Shown here: piece by piece, positions 29,191 to 55,478 of the stretch
How positions within the stretch are numbered: position 1 is the stretch's first letter
How the letters are laid out: each line of letters starts with the position of its first letter
DNA from: Candidatus Saccharibacteria bacterium UBA6572
GTDB lineage: Bacteria > Patescibacteriota > Saccharimonadia > Saccharimonadales > Saccharimonadaceae
Length of the DNA stretch: 64,000 nucleotides
Assembly (NCBI GenBank): GCA_002434045.1
Contig: DJJI01000003.1
Coordinates: forward strand, 997-64,996
Direction: 5' to 3'
Made by a program: the position numbers and the translations under genes
Notes under the pieces: generated by a model
What the model was told of the DNA's origin: nothing
Databases searched by the model: none
What the model saw: only the letters and a program-made list of their open reading frames with translations

Positions 29191-29551
29191 GGCCAGATGA
29201 TTAGACGATCGCGTGCTTCACGGCACGAGGAAAGTCCGGGCAGCACAGAACAACGACAGTTGCTAACGGCAACCGGGGGTGACCCTAGGGAAAGTGCCAC
29301 AGAAACGATACCGCCAACGTATCCCTAAAGGATGCACGGTAAGGGCGAAAAGAGTGAGGTAAGAGCTCACAGCGACGTATGGTGACATGCGGAGGAGGTA
29401 AACCCTGTCGGCTGCAAGGAGATTTGCTACTGCCACCTAGTGTGGTGACTGTTCGTCAGCAAATCGCTATACCCCGCTTGAACTGATGAGCAATCATCAG
29501 TCTAGATAGATGATCGTCCACGACAGAACCCGGCTTATATGTCATCTGGCC
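29191..29551 (+). ncRNA. rnpB: RNase P RNA, bacterial type A
   Basis: P4 strands gaggaaagtccgggc (29227) and acagaacccggctta (29523), terminal pairing ggccagatga.../...tcatctggcc, a TATAAT box at 29178-29183, and a terminator directly after. Confidence 0.9.
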
Positions 29552-29554
29552 ACT

Positions 29555-32457: not shown

Positions 32458-32847
32458 GGGGCTGACACAGCTTTCGACGATTGGACCTTAACAGATCATT
32501 TTGCAAGTCGATTTACTGACGCAATCAGTTATTTAACTGCAAACACATTTGCATCAGCATGGGCGAAAGTAAAGAACGCTTTCAGCGTTCCTAGCTACGC
32601 CTTTGCGCCAGCCGTAGCCTAAGTGCTCGCGGCCGCGCCTACCGTGACGTCATATAGCGGCCAGGCGTGTCATACCATATGACTTGACGTCTCCGTAGCT
32701 GTGAAGCGAATACGTGACACTTATTCATAGACCGTCCTTACTTTTTTGTCAGTTCTCTATGTAGGGCCGCACTAAAAACTGACTATGCTTGTAGAAGAAT
32801 GATCCGTTACCGATCGGACCGGGGGGCAGTACCCCGCAGCTCCACCA
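32458..32847 (+). ncRNA. ssrA: tmRNA (SsrA)
   Basis: The 5' ggggctg pairs with the 3' cagctcc-a-cca, including a G3:U pair. The T arm is cgggg-ggcagta-ccccg. The internal tag frame from GCG 32563 to TAA 32620-32622 encodes AKVKNAFSVPSYAFAPAVA*. A terminator follows. Confidence 0.85.
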
Positions 32848-36211: not shown

Positions 36212-39124
36212 GTGCTCAACGTCGTCATCGTCATACTTGTCGTCCTGGTAGCGGCCGGTGGCATCGTCGGCTTCTTTTACTGGCAATACCAACGAGTTCT
36301 TCGTGAGGCAAAGAACTACGAGCGCGGCCTCAAGATGGTACCGCTTCTTATTCATATACCACCGGCGAGCGATGATATCGAAGCAGGCGGACGTGATGAA
36401 CGTGATATTACCGAGGAGACAATATCCCAGGCACAGGTGATGTACAACATCATTGCCAGCACGGTTACGAAAGGGTTCAAGAGCAAGCTGTATGGACAGC
36501 GGCACTTAGCCTTCGAAATCATCGGTAGTAAAGGGCTGATCCATTACTACGTTGTTGTACCGATGGCACTTCTCGATGTCGTGAGGCAAGCGGTCGCGGC
36601 AGCGTACCCAGCAGCACGGCTGGAGGAGGTTGAAGAACACAACATCTTTAGTAAGGTCGGTAAGATCAGCGCAACTATTGGTGGTGAGCTGACCCTCAAG
36701 ACCAAGTATGCCTATCCGATTGCGACCTTCCAGGAGAGTAAACGTGATGCGATGCGTGCTATCCTTAACGCGCTTGCGGTCGCAGGGCGCGAAGACGGTG
36801 TCGGTATCCAGATGCTACTCCGGCCCGCTCCAGAGGGCTGGACAAAGAACGTTATGGGCGCTGCTGCGAAGATCCGCAAAGACAAGGGCGTCAAGACCGG
36901 TGTTGGCGGCGCACTCGCGCCAAAAGACCTCCTGGAGGCTCTCTGGAAGGCGCCAGAACAAAAGGAAGTAAAGCCAGAGGACAAGCAGCTAAGTAGTTTA
37001 GAGCAAGCCACAGTGGACGCTCTCGAGGACAAGACACGTCATCCAGGGTACGAAGTACTTATCAGAGTAGTGGCCAGCAGTAATACGTCTGCCCGTTCAC
37101 AGGTGCTGCTCAAGAACGTCGTAGCAGCTTTTGCATTGTTCGATAGCCCTGGTAAAAATGGATTTAAGTTCTCACTTGCTAAGGATATCGAGTCATTCGT
37201 GACGTCGTTCATCTTCCGATTTTTCCCTCAGGACATCAAGCAGAATATCCTCAACAGCGTTGAGCTCGCAACCATATTTCACCTTCCAGACCAGCGGAAT
37301 ATTCCGACGTCACAATTACAACGTCAAGCAAGCAAGCAAGTTGATGGTCCGCACCAGTTACTCACAGAAGGCTTCCTGATGGGTTACAACGTTTACAGGG
37401 GTGTCAAGAAAGAAATCCGTCTTAGTACTAACGATCGTCGCCGTCATACTTACATCATTGGTCAGACTGGTACCGGTAAGTCGAAACTGCTTGAGAACCT
37501 AGCATTGCAGGATATGCTCGACGGGAAAGGCTTTGCATTCATCGATCCACATGGTGACTCTGCCGAGGCACTGCTCGGCATGGTGCCTAAGGAGCGGGTT
37601 GAGGATGTCATCTACTTTAACCCTGGCGACATGGATAACCCGCTTGGTCTTAATCTGTTCGAGTTCGAGACGCCTGATCAACGTGACTTCCTCGTGCAGG
37701 AGGCAATCGCGATGTTGTATCGCCTGTATGACCCCGGTCACACAGGCATTATAGGTCCTCGCTACGAACACTGGTTCCGAAATGCCGCACTGACCATCAT
37801 GAGCGACCCAGCTGGGAGCAGTTTCATCGACATCCCGCAGGTATTTAACGACGATGCGTTTGCGAAGGAGAAGATAAAGCATGTCACCGACCAGACCGTA
37901 CTCGACTTCTGGAACAAAGAGATGGCACAAACTAGTGATTATCATAAATCGGAGGTGCTCGGCTGGTTCGTGAGCAAGTTCGGCGCCTTCCTGAGTAATG
38001 AGATGATGCGGAACATCATCGGTCAGACCAAGAGCGGCTTTGACCTGCGTGACATCATGGATAACAAAAAGATCTTGCTCGTGAACCTTAGTAAAGGCCG
38101 CACCGGTGAACTCAACTCGCAGCTGCTCGGTATGATTTTTGTCATGAAGTTCCAAGCAGCCGCAATGGGGCGGGCTGACATCCCAGAGGAGCAGCGAGAA
38201 GATTTCGCGCTCTACGTCGACGAGTTCCAGAACTTTGCAACCGATAGTTTCGAGAGTATCTTGTCCGAGGCTCGTAAGTATCGTCTCAACCTCATCCTTG
38301 CGAACCAGTTCGTTTCCCAGTTGACCGACAAAATACGTGAAGCCATCATCGGTAACGTTGGTACGGTGATTTCGGGTCGTATCGGTACGACGGATGCAGA
38401 GTTGATGGCAAAAAAGTTCGTGCCGGTATTTGACGCTGAAGATCTCACGAAGCTACCAAACTACGAAGGTGTTGCGGTCATGCAGATCAGTGGTGTCCCA
38501 TCAGCGCCGTTCAGCATGATCTTCCCACCGATTCTGGGTCATCCGAACCCTCAGCTTGCAGGAGCACTCAAGAAGCTCTCAGCGGCAAAATACGGCAAGC
38601 CGCGTTCAGATGTCGAGCGTGAAATATTCGCGCGCCTGAGGGCCGGAGATGCGGCCAAGGAAGCAAAGAAGAAGGCATTCGAAGAGCGTATGAAGAGCGG
38701 TGGTCAGCAACAAGGTAGTGGTTCTGGTTCATCGTTCCTCGATGAATGGCTCGCCAAGCGTAAACAGATACAAGCAACAAAGTCACCAACCTCAAAACCA
38801 GCACCAGCGCCTAAGCCAGCTGAGCCAGAGCCAAAGTCAGAAGCGCCGACGTCGGAACCAATACAGGTATCATTACCGCCAAAACCTACTAAGCCTGAGG
38901 CGGTTTCAAAGCCCGCTCCAGAAAAACTAAAGGCAACTATCTCTGCACCAGCGCTTGCCACGGAACAAGAACCAGAGAAGCCCAAAGAAGAACTTGTCGT
39001 GCGTGAGCAGGAAACTGACGCGATGGATGACGAAATATTCATCGATCTACGAGGCAATCTTCACCACAAGAGCGACCAGGATACAACTGCATCCGACGAA
39101 CCAAAAAAACCGGCCGCTTCCTAG
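36212..39124 (+). CDS. VirD4/TraG/TraD-like type IV coupling-protein family ATPase with N-terminal TM and low-complexity C-terminal tail
   Basis: N-terminal TM (VVIVILVVLVAAGGIVGFFYW), Walker A GQTGTGKS, FIDPHGD, Walker B ALYVDEFQNFAT and KYRLNLILANQ, matching the TraG-D_C/TraM-recognition-type ATPase pattern. The last ~170 aa form a Pro/Lys/Glu/Ala-rich tail. Confidence 0.75.
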   Translation: MLNVVIVILVVLVAAGGIVGFFYWQYQRVLREAKNYERGLKMVPLLIHIPPASDDIEAGGRDERDITEETISQAQVMYNIIASTVTKGFKSKLYGQRHLAFEIIGSKGLIHYYVVVPMALLDVVRQAVAAAYPAARLEEVEEHNIFSKVGKISATIGGELTLKTKYAYPIATFQESKRDAMRAILNALAVAGREDGVGIQMLLRPAPEGWTKNVMGAAAKIRKDKGVKTGVGGALAPKDLLEALWKAPEQKEVKPEDKQLSSLEQATVDALEDKTRHPGYEVLIRVVASSNTSARSQVLLKNVVAAFALFDSPGKNGFKFSLAKDIESFVTSFIFRFFPQDIKQNILNSVELATIFHLPDQRNIPTSQLQRQASKQVDGPHQLLTEGFLMGYNVYRGVKKEIRLSTNDRRRHTYIIGQTGTGKSKLLENLALQDMLDGKGFAFIDPHGDSAEALLGMVPKERVEDVIYFNPGDMDNPLGLNLFEFETPDQRDFLVQEAIAMLYRLYDPGHTGIIGPRYEHWFRNAALTIMSDPAGSSFIDIPQVFNDDAFAKEKIKHVTDQTVLDFWNKEMAQTSDYHKSEVLGWFVSKFGAFLSNEMMRNIIGQTKSGFDLRDIMDNKKILLVNLSKGRTGELNSQLLGMIFVMKFQAAAMGRADIPEEQREDFALYVDEFQNFATDSFESILSEARKYRLNLILANQFVSQLTDKIREAIIGNVGTVISGRIGTTDAELMAKKFVPVFDAEDLTKLPNYEGVAVMQISGVPSAPFSMIFPPILGHPNPQLAGALKKLSAAKYGKPRSDVEREIFARLRAGDAAKEAKKKAFEERMKSGGQQQGSGSGSSFLDEWLAKRKQIQATKSPTSKPAPAPKPAEPEPKSEAPTSEPIQVSLPPKPTKPEAVSKPAPEKLKATISAPALATEQEPEKPKEELVVREQETDAMDDEIFIDLRGNLHHKSDQDTTASDEPKKPAAS

Positions 39125-39731: not shown

Positions 39732-42035
39732 TTAGATTGTCCCCATGTTGAAGTCTTTACGAATCAATTTTACCTCACGCTTTAGTTGGCGAGAACGAGC
39801 CCAGAAGAAGGTGACGATCGTGCCGATTACACCAGCGAACAGGAGGTTTTCACCCGGACCGGTTTTTGGCAGCTCAGACACTGCTGATTCCACCAGTTTC
39901 GGTGTCTCGCACGCTACAGGTATATTAACGGTGTTACCAAACGAGTTAGTCATGATGCAGTCGTAGCTGCTTGGTTCCGATGCACCACGTGCTGTTGTCG
40001 GGATGGTATGGAGTAACTGGATAACAAAGCTGCGGCTCGTCTTCTCACCAGGTTGAAGCGTGATGTCGCCCCAAGCGAGCACTTTGTTAGCCTCATCGAA
40101 GGTTCCACCACCATTTTGGATCAGCTTAGCGTATTCGAGGACGTCACTCAACTCCTCTGACACCGTACGTGTCATCGGTAATTGACCAACGTTCTCAAGG
40201 TAAACAGTGTATTCGATACGGTCACTCGCTTGCGCCTTCATGGTTGTGGCGTCAACGCCCTGCGTGAGGTTGCGGCCAGTCTTTGACTCGGTTACCTGGA
40301 TACATGCAGGGTTGTTGTTCTCGCATGGGTTTTTACAGTCATCGAGGTTCTTCGAGTGTTTTGAAGCATCAAACTCAGTTTCCTTGATGGAGATAATAGT
40401 CTTTGAGGCCAGCTCACAAACCTGTATCACTGCGACGGGTGGGTTAACTGTGACCGTTGCGTCATCGCAGTCATCGGTCTGAGTTGGCTGAGATGGGCTC
40501 ACTTCGGCTGCGTTGACGCAAGCCGTGTTCACGAGCGAGCCTGCAATATATTTCGCCACCTTTGCGGTGATGGTGATAGTCAGACTTTCACCCATCTTAA
40601 GCGTTGGGATCGTATATGACCATTTATTGTTCTTGATATTGCCAACGCTTGCGCTCTGCATTGTGACACCATTTGGCGCAGGATCCGTAACCGCGACGTT
40701 CTTGAGGTTAACTTCCCCAGTATTCGTAACGGTTAACTGGTAGGTGAAAGGGGCGTTGACTTCGACAGCTTTGAGATCAACACCATCTACCTTCTTATCT
40801 ATATCAACAGCTGGTGTTGTCGGGGCATTGACTTTGAATGAGGCGACACAGTTTTCATTTGTCTTATCTCCCTCAGAGGTCTTAACCGTAACCCGAGCGG
40901 TATAAGTGCCTGGTTCGCTGATATTAAGGCGACCACTACTTGCCTTTAGCGACGTCGTAGAGACGTCTTTGGTCAGTACGACAGATTTACCTGAGTCAAT
41001 TACAGTGAAACGATAACTCTTTATCTTGGCACCATTTTCAGCTAGAGCCTTACCCTCGAGGCTAAAGTCAGTGCGACTGATGCGGTTAAAGATTAATTGC
41101 TCGCACTTTGCGACCGGTTCAGGCTTGATGCAGCCGCCTGGAATTGTAGCTGTTTTGTCGAACTGGACAGTCGAATCACCCCAACCAGCGAGTGGCACCA
41201 TGACTCCCCACACTTTGGTCGACTCCTCAGATTTTTTATATTTTTCAGGAACCTTAACACTGAATTTATTTTCCTTGTCGGTCATGATCGGACCAACTTT
41301 CTCACCTTTTCCTGGAGGACCGTCAAAGTATAGGAAAACCTTGATACGTGCGTCTTTATCGCGGCTATCAACCGCCTTACCACGCACCATTTCACAGCTG
41401 GCGGCGATGAAGTGGGCACCAACATCAGGCTTTGGCGTGTTGCGAGTAACCAGGTTGCCACAGTCTTTCATGATGGCGAACATACCGCGTTTTGCGGAGT
41501 GACCAACGAAAGCTCCGTAGGTCGACCCGTTGGCAATCGTATAAGAGGTGCTGTCAAATAACCAAAGAGGACGAGAGTAGATAGTTGTGGCGCCACCGGT
41601 ATCAAGTGGCACTGAATGCTTCACTTCACCTTGGCCAGGGCTGAATCGCTTAGCTCGTCCCCAAGTCTTCCAAGCGTCATTGTCGGTGCCGTGCCCCTTG
41701 CTATTGATCGTTCCTTCACGCATATTTGCGAGCTCGGCACGGGTAATACCGTTGTAATCCATGATGTCTTTGAAATCGCTACGAAGTTTGTCATATTCAG
41801 CCAGGACGGCTTTCTTTGATTGCACACCACCGTAGATCATGTCCGAGCCGTTTGCCGCGTTTGCAGATTCAGGGGGGGTGAACACTGTCAATGACTGCAC
41901 AACAAGTGCTAGTGCAGTAAATACCAGCCCAAGCCGTCGGGTTGCCTCCTCTTTCTTTAGGCGCTTTGCATAAAAACCAAGTTGGCCCACCAAAGCCGGG
42001 GAAAAAGCGAGATTCGATACAATCTTGCGAAACAT
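39732..42035 (-). CDS. LPXTG-anchored surface protein with DUF11-type repeat domains
   Basis: C-terminal sorting signal LPKTGPGENLLFAGVIGTIVTFFWARSRQLKRE. Ig-like repeats of DUF11 type (TYQLTVTNTGEVNLKNVAVTDPAP; EYTVYLENVGQLPM) are present, along with an N-terminal TM/signal anchor. The start is taken at MFRKIV (42035). Confidence 0.8.
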   Translation of the reverse strand: MFRKIVSNLAFSPALVGQLGFYAKRLKKEEATRRLGLVFTALALVVQSLTVFTPPESANAANGSDMIYGGVQSKKAVLAEYDKLRSDFKDIMDYNGITRAELANMREGTINSKGHGTDNDAWKTWGRAKRFSPGQGEVKHSVPLDTGGATTIYSRPLWLFDSTSYTIANGSTYGAFVGHSAKRGMFAIMKDCGNLVTRNTPKPDVGAHFIAASCEMVRGKAVDSRDKDARIKVFLYFDGPPGKGEKVGPIMTDKENKFSVKVPEKYKKSEESTKVWGVMVPLAGWGDSTVQFDKTATIPGGCIKPEPVAKCEQLIFNRISRTDFSLEGKALAENGAKIKSYRFTVIDSGKSVVLTKDVSTTSLKASSGRLNISEPGTYTARVTVKTSEGDKTNENCVASFKVNAPTTPAVDIDKKVDGVDLKAVEVNAPFTYQLTVTNTGEVNLKNVAVTDPAPNGVTMQSASVGNIKNNKWSYTIPTLKMGESLTITITAKVAKYIAGSLVNTACVNAAEVSPSQPTQTDDCDDATVTVNPPVAVIQVCELASKTIISIKETEFDASKHSKNLDDCKNPCENNNPACIQVTESKTGRNLTQGVDATTMKAQASDRIEYTVYLENVGQLPMTRTVSEELSDVLEYAKLIQNGGGTFDEANKVLAWGDITLQPGEKTSRSFVIQLLHTIPTTARGASEPSSYDCIMTNSFGNTVNIPVACETPKLVESAVSELPKTGPGENLLFAGVIGTIVTFFWARSRQLKREVKLIRKDFNMGTI

Positions 42036-42117
42036 TTTTCCTGTTTGTTTTATTTTTGTCTCCTTAAGAGAAACATTAGCATAATAAATATGTTCAATGC
42101 AATAGATTTCCAGTTGG

Positions 42118-42146
42118 TTGCCTGAGTACAATTTGCCAGGTATAAT
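42118..42146 (+). promoter_or_regulatory. Candidate gyrB promoter
   Basis: TTGCCT, a 17-nt spacer, then TATAAT (42141-42146), located 35 nt upstream of the gyrB ATG. Confidence 0.45.
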
Positions 42147-47282: not shown

Positions 47283-48801
<1,519 letters not shown>

Positions 48802-48980
48802 TAGGGAGAAACTATGCCTGCTTATCGAGAAATCATAAGTAGAGCTAGGTCGGTCTTGTTGTTATGCTGAGCTTACATAACAACCTATCCCTTCGGGGAA
48901 AGACAAAGTTCACCTTTTACTTGTCAGTAATGATAAGAACCCTGACGAATGACGCTTGCACTGCTAAGTTGTGAAACACT

Positions 48981-49010
48981 AAAAATACCGCCTTATAGGG
49001 CGGTATTTTT
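48981..49010 (+). terminator. Rho-independent terminator directly downstream of the 16S processing stem
   Basis: aaaataccgcc-ttatag-ggcggtatttt followed by t. Confidence 0.65.
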
Positions 49011-49021
49011 ATGTTAAAACC

Positions 49022-49051
49022 TTGCATTCACCTCTGTTTTTCTGGTACAAT
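49022..49051 (+). promoter_or_regulatory. Candidate promoter for the tRNA-Ala/tRNA-Ile unit
   Basis: TTGCAT (49022-49027), an 18-nt spacer containing TGg, then TACAAT (49046-49051). Confidence 0.45.
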
Positions 49052-49085
49052 GTCCTCTGACCTTCACGGTCGATCTTTTCTACTT

Positions 49086-49162
49086 GGGGCGTTAGCTCAG
49101 TTGGCTAGAGCACCTGCTTTGCAAGCAGGGGGTCCGGGGTTCGAGTCCCCGACGCTCCACCA
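49086..49162 (+). tRNA. tRNA-Ala (anticodon TGC)
   Basis: ggggcgt acceptor with G3:T70, anticodon loop ttTGCaa, T arm ccggggttcgagtccccg, and an encoded CCA. Confidence 0.95.
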
Positions 49163-49196
49163 AGTTTATTTTGAAAACACCACGTATTTGGTGTGT

Positions 49197-49231
49197 GGGC
49201 GATTAGCTCAGTTGGTTAGAGCGCGTCACTG
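49197..49231 (+). pseudogene. Truncated tRNA-Ile copy (5' half only: acceptor strand, D arm, 5' anticodon stem)
   Basis: gggcgattagctcagttggttagagcgcgtcactg is identical to 49269-49303 of the intact gene. With the preceding tgt, the perfect direct repeat is 38 nt (49194-49231 and 49266-49303). Identity breaks off exactly at the anticodon loop. Confidence 0.85.
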
Positions 49232-49268
49232 CTGTTTAACAATCGATATTATGCGTATTCTCACTTGT

Positions 49269-49345
49269 GGGCGATTAGCTCAGTTGGTTAGAGCGCGTCA
49301 CTGATAATGACGAGGTCGGAGGTTCAAATCCCTCATCGCCCACCA
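49269..49345 (+). tRNA. tRNA-Ile (anticodon GAT)
   Basis: gggcgat-ta-gctc-agttggtta-gagc-g-cgtca-ctGATaa-tgacg-aggtc-ggagg-ttcaaat-ccctc-atcgccc-a-cca. It is flanked by complementary segments attctcac / gtgagaat. Confidence 0.95.
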
Positions 49346-49816
49346 GTGAGAATGCACATCAATCGTTAACACACACGCCTGAAAGGCGCAGTGTAATGAC
49401 TCGGCCGAAGCACGACTGTGTCGCGCGCCAGAGGCGAACAGATCCCATGCCTTCGGCGCGTTTCACGAACATCACCCACCAGATATGTGGTGTTTTATTT
49501 TGTTTTGTGCAAAATAAATGAAGTAGAATAATCAACACTTTAGTCAAAATCATAGATCTGTTTACGTGCGAGCATTTCAGTATGTATGTGTAGCTCAATA
49601 CACTACAAATAAACGATCCTCTTGAGACAAAAACCAATCATAAGAATAAAATAAAAATGTAATATTAACATCGAAATTAGGCAAATCATTACATTCCACA
49701 AAGCGCAAACTGGCACAGATTGTCCACCACTGTTTTGAGTGAGTGAAAAGACTACTTTTTTTATTCAGCAAAGCGTATACTAAACCCAAGCCACAAAACA
49801 GAAAAAACCTAAAAAA

Positions 49817-52800
49817 ATGGAAAACAAAGATTATTCAACGACAGGTTCGTCGTTGGGGGACCTAAATGGTAACCCAGGGGTTTCTGTTGCTCAACAACCT
49901 GTCACTTCAGCGGGTACGACGTCAGTTTCTGGTGGCGCTACGCAGCCAGGCCTATCTGTGAAGGTTGGCAAAGGACTGCCAAGTTCATGGAAGTTGATCG
50001 TTGTTAGCCTTCTTTTCATTGCGGGTCTTGCACTCGTAGGTTTTCTCGGATATCGACAGTACCAACAGGGACAGCTGAGTAATCCGGCGCAGAGCGCCGC
50101 CCCGGCGGATACCTATGCTATTCAAGATATTAACCTGGATGACCTTGTAGCATCTGGCGGTCTTGACCTTGCAACCTCGCAAGCACTGAGCGTGAATGGC
50201 CAGCTACGCACGAATAATTCACTCATTTTGACACCGACAGAACGTCCGAGCGACGGTAGTGCCGGACAACTCTACTATGACCAAGGTGAGAACGGACTGG
50301 CGTTCTTTAACGGTACAGAGTTCGTCAGTGTTGCGTCAGAACAGGATCTGACAGAGCTTCGCACCCAACTACAGGGTGTCCAGGCAAGCATACCGACGAT
50401 TCCAAACATCCCAACTATCCCATCAGATTTGGCAACTCTCGGATCGCAAAACGTTTTCCAAGGATTAAACTCGTTCAATGGTGGGCTCAATACTGCCAAC
50501 CTCACAGTTAGCGGTAGCGCTGCCCTGCAGGGCAGCCTGACAGTAAATGGTCCAGCTACTCTCGGCGCGACAACGATGTCGAGTCTACTGCTTTCATCTC
50601 CACTCAGTGTGAGCTCTGGAGGGACAGGTACTACAAACCTTACAAACAACGGTGTCTTGATCGGTCAGGGAACGAGCCCGATTTCGGCTGTAACAGCAGG
50701 AGGCGCTGGACTCTGTCTGTTATCAACAGCCGGGGCGCCAGCGTTCTCAGCGTGTCCGGGTGGGGGTGGTTCAGGCGTTAACTCGCTTAACGCCTTGATA
50801 GGTGACCTGACTATCGCGAACAGTAGTGCTGCAGGCACGGTTATCACGATCAATGACGCATCGACGAGCGCCAAGGGCATAGCGAGCTTTAACGCTGGTA
50901 ATTTCATCGTCACAAGTGGCGCGGTCAATACTGTGCAAGATATCAGTGTCACCGCATCACCGACATTTGCGAATGTAACAGCTACAACACTCTCCGGTAG
51001 CGGTAGCGGGGTCACGAATCTGAACGCGAGTAACGTGAGCAGTGGAACTCTTGGTGACGGGCGTCTTAGCGTGAATGTGCCGCTGCTCGGCGCGGCGACA
51101 AACAACTTCACTGGCACGCTCCAGCAAGCGGGCAATACCGTCTGTGACAACTCAAATAACTGTGGATATTTGACTGGCTCGGCAGCTGATGGTTCATACG
51201 TACAACTTCAGGTCGGTACCCCTGGAACGGCACAGACCGGACATTTTAATATCACTGGTACTGGTATCGCCAATGCCTTAACCGCCGTGACACTAGCTGG
51301 TAACGGAGCTGCTGTGACAAACGTGAACGCTGCTCAGCTGAATAGTCAAGCGCCGAGCTATTACCTCAACGCGACTAACTTGTCTGCTGGTACGCTTAAT
51401 GACGCACGCTTGAGTGCAAATGTCGCCCTCCTGAACGCGGCAACAAACAACTTCACCGGCACGCTCCAGCGAGCTGGGAACGATGTCTGTGACAACTCAA
51501 ACAACTGTAATTATCTAACAGGGAGCGCCGCTAACGGTGCCTACGTTCAGCTGCAGGTTAGTACCCCTGGAACGGCACAGACCGGACATTTTAATATCAC
51601 TGGTACGGGACGCGCTGCTGCTCTTTACCAAAACGGAAACCAAGTCTGTGACACGACCGGTAACTGTGCAGGCCTCGGTGGTAGTTTGACGGGTTCGGGC
51701 ACGACAGGAACTATTGCAAAATTTACAGCTAGTGGAAACCTCGGTGACTCACTGCTCACGGAGAGCGGAAGCGTGATAACCGTTAACGGTGATCTGTTCG
51801 CTGATAGTTTCGATGGAGATGGTTCAGCTGTTACAAACGTAAATGCAGCCCAACTTGGTGGACAAGTTGCTGGCTACTACCTCAATGCAACAAATATTAG
51901 TTCAGGTACGTTGTCGGACTCGCGACTTAGTGCGAATGTTACGATACAAGGTAATACCTTTAACGGTGCGAACCAGTTGGTTCAGCTCAATGCCTCAAGT
52001 CAGTTACCGGCTTTGTCAGGTGCGTTACTTACGAATCTAAATGGTAGCGCAATCACGAGCGGTACCGTCGCAGACGCGCGTCTCAGCGCAAATATCCCAC
52101 TACTCAACGCCGCTACGAACAACTTCACCGGCGCGCTCCAGCAAGGTGGCAATGACGTGTGTGACGACTCGAATAACTGTAATTACCTAACAGGATCGGC
52201 AGCCAATGGCGCATATATCCAGCTACAGGGCACAACTCCGGGATCGGCACAGACAGGAAATATTAATATCACAGGCACCGCAATCGCCGGTAACTTCAGC
52301 GGCAATGGATCAGCGCTATCCAATCTCAACGCCAGTAACCTGGCTTCGGGATCGGTCGCGGATGTCCGTCTCAGTGCGAATGTTCCTCTGCTAAATGCCG
52401 CTACGAACAACTTCACGGGTACGATACAACAAGGCGGTAACGATGTCTGTGATGACTCCAATAACTGTAACTATCTCACCGGTAGTGCAGCAAACGGGCT
52501 GTACGTGCAATTACAGGGAGCAACTCCTGGCAGTGCTCAGACAGGTCACTTAAACATTACTGGCACCGCGATCGCCGCAAACTTTAGTGGTAATGGCTCC
52601 GCCCTAACAAGCTTGAACGGTACTAATATCAGTTCTGGCACCGTTGCTGACGCACGACTTACGAGTAATGTGACACTCCAAGGCAATACGTTTAACGGTG
52701 TGAGCCAGTTGGTTCAAACCGACGGCTCAGGGCAATTACCAGCTCTTTCCGGGGTACTGCTCACGAGTCTCAATGGTAGTAATATCGCGTCTGGCACCGT

Positions 52801-54616
52801 TGCTGACGCACGTCTCAGTGCAAACGTCGCGCTCCTCAACGCAGCGACCGTGAACTTCACCGGCACCCTCCAACGGGCTGGTAGCAACGTGTGTACCGCA
52901 AGCGGTAACTGTACGAGCGTGACAGCTATTGGCGCACTCGATGGGGGAACGGCAAATGCGACAGGCGCAACCTTATCAAGTAATACATTATATCTACAGA
53001 GTGCGAGCGCGACATACGCTGGATTGGTCAACACTTCTTCTCAGAGTTTTGCAGGTGTGAAGACGTTTACGAACGGGGCCGTACTCTCAGCTGATCAGTC
53101 GCTGACACTATCGAGCTCAACTGGTAACAGCGCTCTACTGTCGGTCGGTGGTCTCAACAGCGCAGCCCTTACCGTCGATACATCTGCCTCAACTGGCTCA
53201 CTACGCGTGGCGATCGGCGTGCCGGGAACCTGTGGAACGGGCCGGTTCTGCGTGAACCAGGGCGTTACTTCATCGTCGGGTGGCGGACCGTTCACGAATT
53301 CACAGAACATCCTAGATATAAACAGAACATCCGCATCAGCGATCACATTTACCGGGCAACGCGTGAGGGTTAACGATGTGACAACCGGTGGAGTAGCAAA
53401 TAATATACAGGGCTTCATCGTTGATTCACGTGCGGGTACGACCAATAACTCAGCGACGATCAACAGCTACATGGCAGATATCTCGAGTAGCCATGGTGGC
53501 AACTTCCTTTGGCTGCAGCACAATGGCTCGACGAACGTCTTTACGGTGACGAACGCTGGCAACCTGACGACGAACGGCACAGGAGCCTTCACTGGCAATC
53601 TGACAACGAGTGGGAATCTCGGCGCTAACAATGCGTCACCTAACTTCCGCCTGACGGTAAATTCCCAAGGTACAGGTACGCATAACTCAGCAGCTTATAT
53701 TAATACTGGTTCAGCGAGTGACACTGGACTTATTATCCAAGGGGTTTCAGGCCAATCTGGTAATTATCTCACAGTGAAGTCATCCTCGGGTGGTGTGGTT
53801 GCGAGCATTAGCGCCTCAGCAGGGAGCTTCTATAATGCTGGTAGTTACTCAGCGGGAAATGGCCAGTTTATTTCTGAGGACGGTGTCGGATCGAGCAGCA
53901 CGAGCGTTATCGTGCGAAGTGGTGGTGCGACTGGCGGCAGCTCAACGACCGGTGACGTCACAATACGGAGTGGAAACGGTACTAGTGGCGCTTCGTCCGG
54001 TAATATCATCATCGATAGCGGTAATGCTGCAGGAACAACCGGGGCGGTTAGTATCGCGGCTAGCAACGCTAGCGCGCTAGCGTTAGGACGTTCAGGGATC
54101 ACGACAACCTTTGCTGGTAATACTCTCTATAATGGCTCGAACAATACAATCAGCGTCAACTCGGCAACTGCACTGTTGATACAGAACACGAGCGCAACCG
54201 CGCTGTTTACCGCCAACACCAGTACGATGACAGTCACGGTTAGATCGCTCGACGTAACACTGAACCTAACGGTCAATGGACATCTCATCAGCGGTGGTAC
54301 GGCGCCAGGTATCTCAGCTGGGACGGCAGCGTGTACGAGTCCAACGGTATCAGTTTCAGGAACTGATACATCCGGTCGCATCACCGTTAAGACTGGTACC
54401 GGATGTGCTTCTGGAGGAAGGCTGGCAACGATAACTTTCGCAACTGCGTTCGGCGCAGCTCCAAGAGTGACACTCACCCCGGCAAGTCAAAATGCGGCAG
54501 GTCTCACGACGTATATCGACGATTCAACGATCAGCACAACGGCATTTGACCTCTCGACGACCACAACCGCGGCGAACAGCACGACATACCGTTGGTACTA
54601 CCACGTCATTCAGTAA
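49817..54616 (+). CDS. Giant N-terminally anchored surface protein with tail-fibre-like repeats and a lectin-like C-terminal domain
   Basis: 1599-aa ORF with a single TM near the N-terminus (WKLIVVSLLFIAGLALVGFLGY). It carries five copies of a ~65-aa module RLSANV.LLNAATNNFTG.LQ..GNDVCD.SNNCNYLTGSAANG.YVQLQ..TPG.AQTGH.NITGT, interspersed SGT(L/V).D.RLS motifs, a Ser/Thr/Gly/Asn-rich beta-type sequence, and a C-terminus ITFATAFGAAPRVTLTP...TAFDLS...YRWYYHVIQ. Confidence 0.85.
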   Translation: MENKDYSTTGSSLGDLNGNPGVSVAQQPVTSAGTTSVSGGATQPGLSVKVGKGLPSSWKLIVVSLLFIAGLALVGFLGYRQYQQGQLSNPAQSAAPADTYAIQDINLDDLVASGGLDLATSQALSVNGQLRTNNSLILTPTERPSDGSAGQLYYDQGENGLAFFNGTEFVSVASEQDLTELRTQLQGVQASIPTIPNIPTIPSDLATLGSQNVFQGLNSFNGGLNTANLTVSGSAALQGSLTVNGPATLGATTMSSLLLSSPLSVSSGGTGTTNLTNNGVLIGQGTSPISAVTAGGAGLCLLSTAGAPAFSACPGGGGSGVNSLNALIGDLTIANSSAAGTVITINDASTSAKGIASFNAGNFIVTSGAVNTVQDISVTASPTFANVTATTLSGSGSGVTNLNASNVSSGTLGDGRLSVNVPLLGAATNNFTGTLQQAGNTVCDNSNNCGYLTGSAADGSYVQLQVGTPGTAQTGHFNITGTGIANALTAVTLAGNGAAVTNVNAAQLNSQAPSYYLNATNLSAGTLNDARLSANVALLNAATNNFTGTLQRAGNDVCDNSNNCNYLTGSAANGAYVQLQVSTPGTAQTGHFNITGTGRAAALYQNGNQVCDTTGNCAGLGGSLTGSGTTGTIAKFTASGNLGDSLLTESGSVITVNGDLFADSFDGDGSAVTNVNAAQLGGQVAGYYLNATNISSGTLSDSRLSANVTIQGNTFNGANQLVQLNASSQLPALSGALLTNLNGSAITSGTVADARLSANIPLLNAATNNFTGALQQGGNDVCDDSNNCNYLTGSAANGAYIQLQGTTPGSAQTGNINITGTAIAGNFSGNGSALSNLNASNLASGSVADVRLSANVPLLNAATNNFTGTIQQGGNDVCDDSNNCNYLTGSAANGLYVQLQGATPGSAQTGHLNITGTAIAANFSGNGSALTSLNGTNISSGTVADARLTSNVTLQGNTFNGVSQLVQTDGSGQLPALSGVLLTSLNGSNIASGTVADARLSANVALLNAATVNFTGTLQRAGSNVCTASGNCTSVTAIGALDGGTANATGATLSSNTLYLQSASATYAGLVNTSSQSFAGVKTFTNGAVLSADQSLTLSSSTGNSALLSVGGLNSAALTVDTSASTGSLRVAIGVPGTCGTGRFCVNQGVTSSSGGGPFTNSQNILDINRTSASAITFTGQRVRVNDVTTGGVANNIQGFIVDSRAGTTNNSATINSYMADISSSHGGNFLWLQHNGSTNVFTVTNAGNLTTNGTGAFTGNLTTSGNLGANNASPNFRLTVNSQGTGTHNSAAYINTGSASDTGLIIQGVSGQSGNYLTVKSSSGGVVASISASAGSFYNAGSYSAGNGQFISEDGVGSSSTSVIVRSGGATGGSSTTGDVTIRSGNGTSGASSGNIIIDSGNAAGTTGAVSIAASNASALALGRSGITTTFAGNTLYNGSNNTISVNSATALLIQNTSATALFTANTSTMTVTVRSLDVTLNLTVNGHLISGGTAPGISAGTAACTSPTVSVSGTDTSGRITVKTGTGCASGGRLATITFATAFGAAPRVTLTPASQNAAGLTTYIDDSTISTTAFDLSTTTTAANSTTYRWYYHVIQ
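51062..52910 (+). repeat. Intragenic repeat array of the giant surface protein (5 module copies, irregular spacing)
   Basis: Module cores start near 51062, 51416, 52078, 52367 and 52811. A perfect 46-nt repeat gtacccctggaacggcacagaccggacattttaatatcactggtac occurs at 51216-51261 and 51561-51606. Confidence 0.85.
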
Positions 54617-54662
54617 AACAGAGGTAATCAGCAAGGGTGGCTATGCTACAATCATTAGCAGT

Positions 54663-55478
54663 ATGAGTAGAAAATACATCGTAAAACGAAACCTTTGGGT
54701 GGCACTGGCGATGGCAGTATCTGCAGTCCCCGCTCTCGTGAGTGCAGAAGCAGCCATCTCGCAAGGGTTTACGTCTGATGAATCAATTCGGACAGGGGCG
54801 CTTGTCAGTTCTGTCAACGATGAAAAACGCATTGAGCCGGCATCGACCGATAACGGCGATAAACTACTTGGTGTGGCCGGCAAGGATTCACTGGTTGAAT
54901 TATCTAATACCTCAACGCAGGTTCAGGTAGTGACGAGCGGTCTGACACAAACATTCGTTAGCGACATAAACGGTGAAGTCGAGGTCGGTGATCCGATCAC
55001 AGTCTCGCCACTAGTTGGTGTCGGCATGAAGGCGACCGAGAGCGGCTATGTTGTCGGGACGGCACGGGCAAATTTCTCAGAAATCTCAGATAAACAGCAG
55101 CATATCGTCAAGGACAAGAGTGGTAATGATAAACAAGTAAATGTTGCGTTGCTACCAATACAGGTAAACGTCATCTACTTCAGCAAAATGGATGACGAGA
55201 AATCAATCCTGCCCCAGTTCCTCATCAATATCGCCCAATCCGTGGCAGGCAAGGATGTTTCAGTTGCACGTATCCTGATCGCCATGCTAGTCCTGATGGC
55301 GGGAATCGGCTCGATCGGTGTCGTGCTTTATTCATCAGTACGGTCGAGTATTCTATCGATCGGTCGCAACCCGTTGGCAGCATCGGCGGTACACAAAAGC
55401 TTGCTCGAAGTATCTCTCCTTTCACTCGGCATCTTGCTTGTCATGCTCGGAGCGGTTTACTTGATTCTTGTCGTTTAG
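54663..55478 (+). CDS. Secreted/membrane protein: signal peptide, ~190-aa extracytoplasmic domain, and a C-terminal two-helix hairpin resembling an ATP synthase c subunit
   Basis: The start is at MSRKYIVKRNLWVALAMAVSAVPALVSAEA (signal peptide). The C-terminal 73 aa read ...LVLMAGIGSIGVVLYSSV-RSSILSIGRNPLAASAVHKS-LLEVSLLSLGILLVMLGAVYLILVV. The ORF track extension to 54492 overlaps the giant gene. Confidence 0.6.
   Translation: MSRKYIVKRNLWVALAMAVSAVPALVSAEAAISQGFTSDESIRTGALVSSVNDEKRIEPASTDNGDKLLGVAGKDSLVELSNTSTQVQVVTSGLTQTFVSDINGEVEVGDPITVSPLVGVGMKATESGYVVGTARANFSEISDKQQHIVKDKSGNDKQVNVALLPIQVNVIYFSKMDDEKSILPQFLINIAQSVAGKDVSVARILIAMLVLMAGIGSIGVVLYSSVRSSILSIGRNPLAASAVHKSLLEVSLLSLGILLVMLGAVYLILVV

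What the first reader, a model, noticed from the sequence alone, without database searches (positions are those of the whole stretch)
49817..54616. 1599-aa membrane-anchored tail-fibre-like protein with a Cys-pair repeat module and an H-type-lectin-like C-terminus
The architecture runs as follows. First is a short cytoplasmic N-terminus, then a single TM (residues ~57-79). A ~1500-aa extracellular region follows, rich in Gly, Ser, Thr, Asn and Ala. That region contains repeated S-G-T-(L/V)-x-D-x-R-L-S-x-N-V motifs of the kind seen in phage tail fibres. It also holds five copies of a ~65-aa module with an invariant C-D-x-S-N-N-C pair. The C-terminal ~110 aa (GRITVKTGTGCASGGRLATITFATAFGAAPRVTLTPASQ...STTAFDLST...YRWYYHVIQ) resemble the H-type lectin pattern (V/I-x-F-x-x-x-F-x-x-x-P-x-V ... 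F ... W). A fibre ending in a carbohydrate-binding knob, anchored by its N-terminus, is a plausible host-cell-wall adhesin for an epibiont. It lies on a very AT-rich upstream region next to the rRNA breakpoint.
Basis: inference. Interest (0 to 1): 0.7.

Follow-up and report, generated by a model that had tools for sequence, protein, structure and literature searches.

The report
Membrane-anchored phage-tail-fibre-like surface fibre
A soil Saccharibacteria genome encodes a 1599-residue protein, anchored in the membrane by its front end, whose outer part is built from phage tail-fibre sequence motifs and ends in a small domain that some phages also carry at the end of a tail gene; it belongs to a large undescribed family and is a candidate for how these tiny parasitic bacteria hold on to other cells.

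Summary
There are two corrections. The Cys-pair module is about 96 aa, not about 65. Four copies, not five, carry the strict C-D-x-S-N-N-C motif.

It is a single-pass, N-terminally anchored giant surface protein of a Saccharimonadia bacterium. It sits between the 16S/tRNA-Ala/tRNA-Ile cluster and the ATP synthase operon, not in a prophage, and a related strain has the same arrangement.

Residues 255-400 are a family hallmark domain with no Pfam model. It is found almost only in Saccharimonadia MAGs. Its first half matches phage tail-fibre proteins.

The last 117 residues fold confidently into a beta-sandwich (pLDDT 93.8). This "cap" always ends the protein. It occurs in at least 7,500 protein clusters. 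Homologues sit in two phage contigs directly after the tape-measure and tail genes. The H-type lectin model is matched below threshold by this protein and more strongly by relatives.

"Tail-fibre-like, lectin-like tip" is therefore supported. Sugar binding and host adhesion remain inference. The cap is as conserved as the base while the middle varies, so it may be a trimerisation or common-ligand module rather than the specificity determinant. I rate it a new variant of a known kind, of moderate interest.

The parts
49477..49652 (+). Terminator-like hairpin with a T-run (49477-49492) that would close the rRNA/tRNA unit, then a sigma-70-like promoter match (49624-49652), inside the AT-rich leader (49491-49816, 31% GC).
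   Evidence: These are consensus matches only, and their number is no higher than in shuffled sequence.
49817..54616 (+). Complete ORF of 1599 aa, the giant surface protein.
   Evidence: An identical protein (P0001) and an 83%-identical orthologue (P0002) exist in public metagenomes. The orthologue has the same gene neighbours.
49817..49984 (+). Residues 1-56: N-terminal tail, predicted to be cytoplasmic. It is the least conserved part (61% identity to the orthologue).
   Evidence: The topology is inferred from the lysines that precede the hydrophobic segment.
49985..50053 (+). Residues 57-79: the only hydrophobic segment, taken to be a signal-anchor or transmembrane helix.
   Evidence: Hydropathy. 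An equivalent segment is present in 98 of 104 full-length homologues.
50054..50578 (+). Residues 80-254: proximal stalk. It contains a GQLYYD..NG..F motif and a Pro-rich IPTIPNIPTIP hinge, which varies by indel in the orthologue.
   Evidence: It is conserved at 40-59% identity in a subset of paralogues.
50579..51016 (+). Residues 255-400: hallmark domain of the family (alignment A2). Motifs are PLxVxxGGTG, NGVLIGQGT, GLCLxSTAGxPxFxxCPG and DASTxxKGIAxFN. C300 and C313 are invariant.
   Evidence: Mean column identity is 72% over 20 paralogues. No Pfam family matches. 114 hits in GTDB genomes, nearly all Saccharimonadia. The first half matches 117 stretches of viral contigs, and the five proteins with PHROG matches among those examined hit tail-fibre families.
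51002..52987 (+). Residues 396-1057: shaft of about 96-aa Cys-loop modules. Each module reads SGTLxDARLSxNV ... NFTG ... C-D-x-S-N-N-C ... YVQLQxxTPGTAQTGxxNIxGT. Full copies are at 51002-51289, 51356-51643, 52022-52309 and 52310-52597, and a truncated copy at 52754-52987.
   Evidence: The module occurs in 28 of about 190 family proteins, with 1-7 full copies. Its C-terminal half occurs in fibre-like proteins on 3 viral contigs. A monomer AlphaFold2 model failed (pLDDT 36.8).
52988..54226 (+). Residues 1058-1470: lineage-specific region rich in G, S, T and N. It includes the C1139-x5-C1145 loop and the stretch GDVTIRSGNGTSGASSGNIIIDSG. It may be a beta-solenoid.
   Evidence: Only the orthologue aligns along its whole length. 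Other proteins share 45-125-aa pieces. No Pfam, NCBIfam or PHROG family matches.
54263..54613 (+). Residues 1483-1599: C-terminal beta-sandwich cap, from NGH...GTDTxG...ATITFxxAFGAAPRVTLTP...YRWYYHVIQ to the end. C1506 and C1530 probably form a disulfide.
   Evidence: AlphaFold2 pLDDT 93.8. 7,524 protein clusters match, and the domain ends the protein in all of the best 150. H_lectin is matched by 21 of 38 members. BFVD phage proteins match at E 6e-10 with TM-score 0.74. Homologues sit in phage tail modules. The two Cys are either both present or both absent (23 versus 15 sequences, none with only one).

Best explanation
This is a cell-surface fibre of a Saccharimonadia (Saccharibacteria, CPR) bacterium.

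Proposed layout, from the membrane outwards:
- A short cytoplasmic tail and one transmembrane helix (residues 57-79) hold it in the membrane.
- The remaining 1500 or so residues project through the wall as a disulfide-stabilised fibre. By analogy with phage fibres and H-type lectins it is probably a homotrimer.
- The exposed part has the order of a phage tail fibre: a proximal stalk, then a conserved domain made of tail-fibre motifs (255-400), then a shaft of about 96-aa Cys-loop modules (396-1057), then a lineage-specific region (1058-1470).
- It ends in a 117-residue beta-sandwich cap. The cap is homologous to the C-terminal end of proteins encoded in the tail-tip gene cluster of siphovirus-like phages, and is distantly related to H-type lectins.

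Proposed function: the fibre attaches the epibiont to another cell or surface. The cap nucleates the trimer and binds a common glycan, while the variable middle of each paralogue supplies the specific binding or enzymatic activity.

Shown here: the gene, its conservation, the single N-terminal hydrophobic segment, the repeat anatomy, the homology to phage fibre proteins at two places, the confident fold of the cap, and the size and taxonomic range of the family.

Inferred: membrane topology, trimer formation, disulfides, glycan binding, and a role in host attachment.
For: Real, conserved gene:
- An identical protein and an 83%-identical orthologue exist, the latter with the same neighbours (tRNA-Ala, tRNA-Ile upstream; ATP synthase operon downstream).
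- The flanking genes are gyrB, gyrA, 16S rRNA and the ATP synthase genes, so this is not a prophage.

Surface location:
- One N-terminal hydrophobic segment is present here and in 98 of 104 homologues, with no other such segment.
- All 18 Cys are paired by spacing, and the two Cys of the cap co-occur perfectly across relatives. Both fit an extracellular, disulfide-bonded protein.

Tail-fibre kinship:
- Residues 259-336 align with a viral-contig protein that matches PHROG tail-fibre families (42% identity, E 9e-12). 117 stretches of viral contigs carry the same motif block.
- The C-terminal half of the module recurs in fibre-like proteins on three viral contigs.

The cap:
- AlphaFold2 gives pLDDT 93.8.
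- BFVD hits to proteins of uncultured tailed phages: E 6e-10, TM-score 0.74, 34-38% identity.
- In contigs L168 and L169 the homologue is the gene that follows the tape-measure, minor-tail and tail-protein genes. L168 ends ...YKWFYHVIQ, against ...YRWYYHVIQ here.
- H_lectin is matched by 21 of 38 members (best E 6.9e-7) and is precomputed for homologue P0051.
- H-type lectins and phage fibre tips are among the best PDB fold matches.

Family:
- 178 giant homologues were found. The hallmark domain gave 114 hits, almost all in Saccharimonadia MAGs, and several genomes carry tandem paralogues.

Literature:
- Giant membrane proteins of CPR bacteria are thought to make a fibrous, host-binding surface (PMC8080830).
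- Several surface adhesins are essential for epibiotic growth of a cultured Saccharibacterium (PMC10633639).
Against: - There is no experimental or structural evidence for trimer formation. The one module model, a monomer, failed (pLDDT 36.8), which says nothing either way.
- The query's own H_lectin score is below Pfam's threshold (18.8 against 24 bits). No PDB fold match reaches E 0.001, and TM-scores to H-type lectins are only 0.29-0.44. Sugar-binding residues could not be compared.
- The cap is conserved rather than variable, which is unlike typical receptor-binding tips.
- tblastn against 50,697 GenBank phage genomes found only one weak hit, so kinship with characterised phages is remote.
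- The organism is uncultivated. Its lifestyle as an epibiont is assumed from its phylum.
Confidence: 0.55

Rival explanations
1. The C-terminal cap is a generic assembly or anchoring module, not the host-binding tip. In this reading it acts as a C-terminal folding and trimerisation nucleus, as in phage fibres. Alternatively it binds the bacterium's own wall polymer, so that both ends of the protein are fixed and the variable middle is displayed. Recognition of the target lies elsewhere in the protein.
For: - The cap occurs at the very end of at least 7,524 protein clusters.
- Its partners have different middles: beta-helix, Kelch, CBM_4_9, LVIVD, FG-GAP/dockerin.
- Only 11 of 78 full-looking carriers have the KGIA motif of the hallmark domain.
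- It is 45-76% identical between paralogues whose middles cannot be aligned.
- It is more conserved than the protein as a whole in the orthologue (88% against 83%).
- The last residue is Q or E in 133 of 134 representatives.
Against: - In phages the homologous domain ends a protein encoded in the receptor-binding position of the tail module.
- H-type lectins are trimers and sugar binders at the same time, so the two roles do not exclude each other.
- There is no evidence that the cap binds the cell's own wall.
Confidence: 0.3
2. It is a structural component of a fibrous coat, like an S-layer or glycocalyx. It would space, protect or stiffen the envelope and have no specific partner.
For: - The sequence is very rich in G, S, T, A and N, is repetitive and has no enzymatic domain.
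- It sits among housekeeping genes and has its own promoter-like site.
- Fibrous surfaces have been seen on CPR cells (PMC8080830).
Against: - Each genome carries several divergent paralogues with binding or enzyme domains in the middle. That fits interaction with varied targets better than a uniform coat.
- The protein shares homology with phage adsorption proteins.
Confidence: 0.1
3. It is a phage gene: a tail fibre of a prophage, a prophage remnant or a tailocin, misread as a cellular surface protein.
For: Tail-fibre motifs and a cap shared with phage tail-module proteins.
Against: - An N-terminal transmembrane anchor is conserved across the family.
- The ORFs scanned on either side of the gene are housekeeping genes or have no family match, with no phage family among them, and the orthologous locus is likewise housekeeping.
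- The gene order between the rRNA/tRNA genes and the ATP synthase operon is the same in another strain.
- The hallmark domain hits are in genomic contigs of hundreds of kilobases.
Confidence: 0.03

Closest known systems
Tail fibre and receptor-binding proteins of tailed phages (PHROG tail-fibre families such as phrog_5481, phrog_11393 and phrog_4549; proteins encoded after the tape-measure and distal-tail genes of siphoviruses)
   Same: - It shares the GGTG / NGVLIGQGT motif block, at up to 74% identity over short stretches.
- It shares the YxQLQ..TPGTAQTGN.NI.GT motif.
- It shares a homologous C-terminal beta-sandwich (47% identity to the L168 protein).
- The overall order matches: proximal part, repetitive shaft, C-terminal knob.
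   Different: - It is not encoded in a phage.
- It carries an N-terminal transmembrane anchor in place of a baseplate-attachment domain.
- The Cys-loop part of the module was not found in viral contigs.
- The tip is conserved rather than hypervariable.
- It has no intramolecular chaperone domain (Peptidase_S74).
H-type lectins (Pfam PF09458; Helix pomatia agglutinin, discoidin II C-terminal domain)
   Same: - The sequence pattern (xTFxxxFxxxPxVxLT ... F ... YxW) gives the only recurrent Pfam hit for the cap.
- The size is similar and the fold is all-beta.
- These lectins appear among the best PDB fold matches.
   Different: - The query scores below the Pfam threshold.
- Foldseek E-values are 0.28-0.8 and TM-scores at most 0.44.
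- The cap has an extra N-terminal part (NGH...GTDTxG) and a disulfide.
- Sugar-binding residues and the trimer were not assessed.
Giant membrane-anchored surface proteins of CPR bacteria (Vampirococcus lugosii, PMC8080830) and the essential adhesins of Southlakia epibionticum (PMC10633639)
   Same: They are very large, membrane-anchored, extracellular proteins of ultrasmall epibionts. They are proposed to mediate recognition of and attachment to the host.
   Different: Those proteins are described with other domains (DUF11, integrin, fibronectin, PKD, VCBS, dockerin). In the passages of those papers that I searched for adhesin, lectin, giant and tail-fibre terms, none of the tail-fibre motifs, the 255-400 hallmark domain or the C-terminal cap is mentioned.
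Fibrillar adhesins of monoderm bacteria and trimeric autotransporter adhesins
   Same: The logic is the same: an anchor, a long repetitive stalk and a terminal binding domain. Trimeric autotransporters are also trimeric beta-rich fibres.
   Different: - The anchor is an N-terminal transmembrane helix. It is neither a C-terminal LPXTG sortase signal nor a C-terminal beta-barrel.
- The stalk repeats are not Ig-like Pfam stalk domains.
- No Pfam stalk or adhesin family is matched.

Membership tests
H-type lectin (Pfam PF09458) | Sequence match to the family profile at or above its gathering score (24 bits) | tested here: not met
   The query scores 14.2 bits as a whole protein and 18.8 bits as the isolated domain. 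Relatives do better: 21 of 38 match at E up to 1, the best at E 6.9e-7, and P0051 carries a precomputed PF09458 hit. The cap family is therefore linked to H_lectin through some members, not through this protein.
H-type lectin (Pfam PF09458) | Six-stranded antiparallel beta-sandwich fold that superposes on HPA or discoidin II | tested here: inconclusive
   The model is confident and all-beta. Foldseek lists 2vm9, 2vme, 2cgy, 2ce6, 2ccv and 4q56 at E 0.28-0.8, probability 0.57-0.66 and TM-score 0.29-0.44. The query model also carried about 35 extra stalk residues.
H-type lectin (Pfam PF09458) | Homotrimer with a GalNAc or Gal binding site between subunits, and conserved binding residues | not testable with these tools
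   No multimer prediction was available and no residue-level alignment to a solved H-type lectin could be obtained. A profile search of PDB sequences found no lectin.
Phage tail fibre / receptor-binding protein | Encoded in a phage tail gene module and part of the virion | tested here: not met
   The neighbours are gyrB, gyrA, 16S rRNA, two tRNAs and the ATP synthase operon, and this order is conserved in another strain.
Phage tail fibre / receptor-binding protein | Significant sequence similarity to proteins classed as tail fibres | tested here: met
   - Residues 259-336 align with L084 at E 9e-12, and L084 matches phrog_5481, 2631, 7032, 454 and 11393, all annotated as tail fibre.
- 117 viral stretches match the hallmark domain.
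- Cap homologues lie in the tail modules of L168 and L169.
- phrog_4549 and phrog_11338 (tail fibre) are matched by 7 of 38 cap sequences.
- The query itself has no significant PHROG hit.
Phage tail fibre / receptor-binding protein | Trimeric fibrous beta-structure | not testable with these tools
   Only monomer AlphaFold2 was available. The module model failed with pLDDT 36.8.
Saccharimonadia giant surface-protein family (defined here by the 255-400 hallmark domain) | N-terminal transmembrane segment, hallmark domain with two invariant Cys, and a variable middle | tested here: met
   The query is 58-82% identical to 19 paralogues over the domain, and C300 and C313 are invariant. A transmembrane segment is present in 98 of 104 homologues.
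Sortase-anchored (LPXTG) fibrillar adhesins and trimeric autotransporters | C-terminal LPXTG sorting signal, or C-terminal YadA-type beta-barrel anchor | tested here: not met
   The protein ends ...YRWYYHVIQ with no C-terminal hydrophobic segment. No Pfam anchor family is matched.

The most novel reading that the evidence does not exclude
Saccharimonadia may have taken over the whole design of a phage adsorption fibre (proximal motifs, shaft and C-terminal knob), fused it to a membrane anchor, and expanded it into a large family of paralogues that serve as their host-recognition organs. The 117-residue cap would then be an undescribed glycan-binding and trimerising domain superfamily of at least 7,500 clusters. 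It would be exchanged between epibionts and phages because both must dock onto the same kinds of cell envelope.
Probability: 0.25. Interest if true: 0.75.

Novelty: new variant of a known kind. Interest (0 to 1): 0.55.

Why it matters
How ultrasmall CPR epibionts find and hold their hosts is largely unknown beyond type IV pili and a few adhesins in two oral strains.

This gene represents a large, unannotated family that appears nearly restricted to Saccharimonadia. Its members share an anchored base and a terminal cap but differ in the middle, and they reuse phage adsorption-protein parts.

If the family mediates attachment, it gives concrete candidates for host-range determinants. It also gives a defined small domain (the cap, confidently modelled) that could be expressed and tested on glycan arrays or on host cells. 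Finally, it suggests that receptor-binding modules move between phages and epibiotic bacteria.

If the cap is only an assembly module, it is still a widespread undescribed domain that deserves a family entry.

Tried and rejected
- Sequence search of the whole protein against PDB chains gave only a chance hit at E 0.47. NCBIfam gave nothing. PHROGs on the whole protein gave one insignificant hit. A Pfam 'Gallidermin' hit (E 0.008, below threshold) was dismissed as a compositional match.
- tblastn of the protein against 50,697 GenBank phage genomes gave one weak hit of 111 aa. BLAST's low-complexity filter probably hides much of this sequence.
- A profile of the cap against PDB sequences gave only E 0.05 (a capsid protein) and E 7.2 (LKA1 tailspike gp49). 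Neither is usable.
- AlphaFold2 on one 96-aa module with 20 aligned copies gave pLDDT 36.8, so no fold search was possible.
The single-sequence cap scan of viral contigs found nothing. A narrower 11-sequence alignment worked.
- Word-indexed protein searches with the middle region and with the cap alone returned only 4 and 6 hits. The exhaustive HMM search was needed to see the size of the cap family.
- I tried to infer the host of the phage contigs that carry the cap. GC is 51.5% for L168 and 62% for L169. L168's tail protein resembles those of phages of Bacillus, Microbacterium, Streptomyces and Arthrobacter at 28-35% identity. L169's gave no match. The question stays open.
- A prophage origin was considered and rejected on context. 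A cleaved signal peptide was considered less likely than an anchor, because the hydrophobic stretch is 20 residues long, follows a 56-residue N-terminal region and has no A-x-A site. No dedicated predictor was available.
- No other paralogue lies in this 64-kb window.
- A diversity-generating retroelement acting on this gene was considered but was not specifically tested.
Full report
**1. The observation**

Hydropathy shows a single strongly hydrophobic stretch around residues 57-79, preceded by K49, K52 and K59. No other such stretch exists. Gly, Thr, Ser, Ala and Asn make up 60% of the protein.

The motif [SA]G[TS][LV]xDxRL[ST]xN[VI] occurs seven times. The 18 cysteines all fall into pairs: seven C-x5-C loops, plus 300/313 and 1506/1530.

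Two details need correcting.
- The strict C-D-x-S-N-N-C motif is present four times. Three further loops are variants.
- The repeat unit is about 96 aa, not about 65. Full copies lie at 396-491, 514-609, 736-831 and 832-927. There is a truncated copy at 980-1057 and there are isolated half-modules. The DNA copies are only 65-72% identical, so these are not recent duplications.

The upstream leader is AT-rich (31% GC over 49491-49816). The gene follows 16S rRNA, tRNA-Ala and tRNA-Ile, and there is no 23S in the window.

**2. A real, conserved, cellular gene**

Public metagenomes hold an identical protein and an 83%-identical orthologue of 1621 aa. The orthologue has the same neighbours: tRNA-Ala and tRNA-Ile upstream, the ATP synthase operon downstream.

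In the window the flanks are gyrB, gyrA, a DUF212 gene and the rRNA/tRNA cluster on one side. ATP synthase subunits lie on the other. Neither the ORFs scanned on either side of the gene nor the orthologous locus showed any phage family.

The orthologue differs only by 1-14-aa indels and has the same four full modules. Its 82.6% identity is lower than that of the ATP synthase alpha, beta and gamma subunits (91-93%) and similar to that of the less constrained neighbours.

A 98%-identical C-terminal fragment is deposited as a hypothetical protein of 'Candidatus Saccharibacteria bacterium'.

**3. The family**

The whole-protein search returned 178 proteins, mostly 1000-2800 aa. Where they are named, they come from Saccharibacteria or Saccharimonadales. 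They share three things.

- **An N-terminal hydrophobic segment.** It is present in 98 of 104 full-length members, starts at a median of residue 66, and is almost always the only one.
- **A hallmark domain matching residues 255-400.** It is 58-82% identical to the query in 19 paralogues. 42 columns are invariant, including both cysteines. No Pfam family matches it. A scan of one genome per GTDB species found 114 relatives. Nearly all are in Saccharimonadia MAGs, many from soil, and one is in the complete genome CP025011. Several contigs carry two copies 9-13 kb apart.
- **In about 45 of the 120 listed, the C-terminal domain.** It always sits at the very end of the protein.

Between these conserved ends the middle differs from paralogue to paralogue. 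Precomputed Pfam hits include Beta_helix/NosD/Pectate_lyase_3, Kelch, CBM_4_9, LVIVD, Peptidase_S74 and H_lectin.

In the query the middle consists of the Cys-loop modules and a 430-residue region (1040-1470) that aligns fully only with the orthologue. The module itself occurs in 28 of about 190 family proteins examined, with one to seven full copies.

**4. Kinship with phage tail fibres**

It holds up, but only through uncultured viral sequences.

- tblastn against GenBank phage genomes gave one weak hit. PHROGs gave nothing significant for the whole protein.
- Scanning IMG/VR with the hallmark-domain alignment found 117 stretches that match its first 35-70 residues at 41-74% identity (PLxVxxGGTGxxxLxxNGVLIGQGTSxI...).
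- The proteins that carry these stretches are long and repetitive. Two end in a sequence that I recognise, from memory and without testing, as the chaperone domain typical of fibres. Five of the eight scanned (six of which came from that scan) match PHROG families annotated as tail fibre.
- A direct comparison of query residues 259-336 with one of them gives 42% identity and E 9e-12. A collinear GQLYYD/GQLWYN motif further upstream is not significant on its own (E 0.24).
- The C-terminal half of the Cys-loop module (YxQLQ..TPGTAQTGN.NI.GT) recurs in fibre-like proteins on three viral contigs. The Cys loop itself was not found there.

**5. The C-terminal cap**

With a 38-sequence alignment, AlphaFold2 models the last 150 residues with mean pLDDT 93.8 as an all-beta domain.

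- *Pfam.* H_lectin is the only recurrent match: 21 of 38 members, best E 6.9e-7. The query itself scores E 0.0017 and 18.8 bits, below the gathering score of 24.
- *PDB fold search.* No match is significant (best E 0.05). The list is nevertheless dominated by C-terminal domains of phage tailspikes and fibres (phi297 gp61, AP22 gp54 and gp53, R-type pyocin fibres) and by H-type lectins (discoidin II, Helix agglutinins). TM-scores are 0.29-0.44.
- *Predicted viral structures.* The result here is clear. Two proteins of uncultured tailed phages match at E 6e-10 and 2.8e-9, TM-score 0.74 and 0.68, 34-38% identity. Weaker hits include proteins annotated as H-type lectin domain or tail fibre.
- *Viral contigs.* A narrower alignment found the cap in three IMG/VR contigs. 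In two of them the carrier gene comes directly after genes that PHROGs identifies as tape measure, minor tail or virion structural protein, and tail protein. That is the position of the receptor-binding protein or tail fibre.
- *Family size.* An exhaustive profile search of 1.84 billion representative proteins found 7,524 clusters at E up to 0.001 and 3,527 at E up to 1e-10. In all of the best 150 the domain runs to the last residue. That residue is Q in 124 and E in 9 of 134.
- *Disulfide.* The two cysteines of the cap are either both present (23 sequences) or both absent (15), and never single. This supports a disulfide.

**6. What the conservation pattern says**

Of 78 full-looking carriers of the cap, 67 have an N-terminal hydrophobic segment, but only 11 have the KGIA motif of the hallmark domain. 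Sampled carriers contain LVIVD, CBM_4_9 or FG-GAP/dockerin middles. One 638-aa carrier lies in an ordinary cellular neighbourhood of a Saccharimonadales MAG.

The cap is therefore a general C-terminal ending for anchored surface proteins in this group. It is about as conserved among paralogues (45-76% identity to the query) as the hallmark domain, whereas the middles cannot be aligned.

Receptor-binding tips of phage fibres are normally the most variable part. I therefore read the cap as a module with a common job: trimer nucleation, binding of a common glycan, or both (as in H-type lectins). I regard the variable middle as the more likely seat of specificity.

An alternative is that the cap binds the cell's own wall. 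I could not tell which hosts the phages that carry the cap infect, and knowing this would help to decide.

**7. Mechanism proposed**

*Shown:* an N-terminal anchor, an extracellular Cys-paired repetitive body, homology to phage adsorption proteins at two places, and a compact terminal beta-sandwich.

*Inferred:* N-in topology; a homotrimeric fibre some tens of nanometres long; disulfide-stabilised loops; and attachment to a glycan-bearing surface, most plausibly that of a host bacterium. The last point rests on two published observations. CPR epibionts carry giant membrane proteins thought to form a fibrous adhesive surface (PMC8080830). Several surface adhesins are essential for epibiotic growth of a cultured Saccharibacterium (PMC10633639).

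In those papers and in a 2024 perspective (PMC11665869), term searches of the text found no mention of this family, of tail-fibre-like modules or of the cap. A full-text search for 'Candidate Phyla Radiation' together with 'tail fiber' found only papers on unrelated topics.

**8. Verdict**

Carbohydrate binding and host adhesion remain untested, and the cap is probably not the specificity determinant.

This is a new variant of a known kind: giant surface adhesins of epibiotic CPR bacteria and bacterial fibrillar adhesins. It is distinguished by an N-terminal membrane anchor, phage-fibre building blocks, a hallmark domain largely confined to Saccharimonadia, and a very widespread undescribed C-terminal cap.

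Noticed in passing
window 49197-49231 (and 49269-49345): A perfect 35-nt copy of the 5' half of tRNA-Ile(GAT), up to the anticodon loop, lies 72 nt upstream of the intact tRNA-Ile gene. The flanking sequences look partly inverted-complementary. It could be a scar of recombination or integration, or a processing structure.
   Followed up: partly
window 47283-49345: 16S rRNA, tRNA-Ala(TGC) and tRNA-Ile(GAT) are not followed by 23S or 5S anywhere in the 64-kb window, so the rRNA operon is unlinked. The same two tRNAs precede the orthologous giant gene in a related strain (L001 517-821), so the break is conserved.
   Followed up: partly
window 36212-39124 (+) and 39732-42131 (-): A 970-aa VirD4/TraG-like coupling ATPase (T4SS-DNA_transf, TraG-D_C) lies next to a 799-aa DUF11-domain protein. 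These are other envelope or secretion genes of the kind reported as important in Saccharibacteria.
   Followed up: no
window 54492-55478 (+): The mechanical ORF overlaps the end of the giant gene by 125 nt. The orthologue in L001 is 271 aa and starts 49 nt after the stop, so the true start here is probably near 54660. It has no Pfam hit. From its position at the head of the ATP synthase operon it is probably subunit a.
   Followed up: partly
L014/L015, L016/L030, L036/L037, L020/L048, L021/L056 (GTDB loci): Several Saccharimonadia MAGs carry two paralogues of the giant family 9-13 kb apart on one contig, that is, tandem arrays of genes of about 2000-3000 codons.
   Followed up: no
L021, L023, L031, L045, L081 (GTDB loci): MAGs titled Bacillota, Pristimantibacillus, Woesebacteria, Magnetospirillaceae or Gammaproteobacteria carry the hallmark domain at 52-68% identity. 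These are probably mislabelled or contaminated bins rather than real spread outside Saccharimonadia.
   Followed up: no
P0051 residues about 1560-1700; L089 and L151 C-termini: One paralogue (P0051) carries an extra conserved block (..DLAEAY..GDVV..AIGVIST.PG..) just before the cap. Two viral fibre proteins that share the hallmark motif end in what looks like a Peptidase_S74-type chaperone domain. Fibre-end modules thus seem to be interchangeable in this family.
   Followed up: no
window 29193-29553 and 32458-32847: RNase P RNA (class A) and tmRNA are both present and complete, as expected for a bacterial chromosome segment.
   Followed up: no
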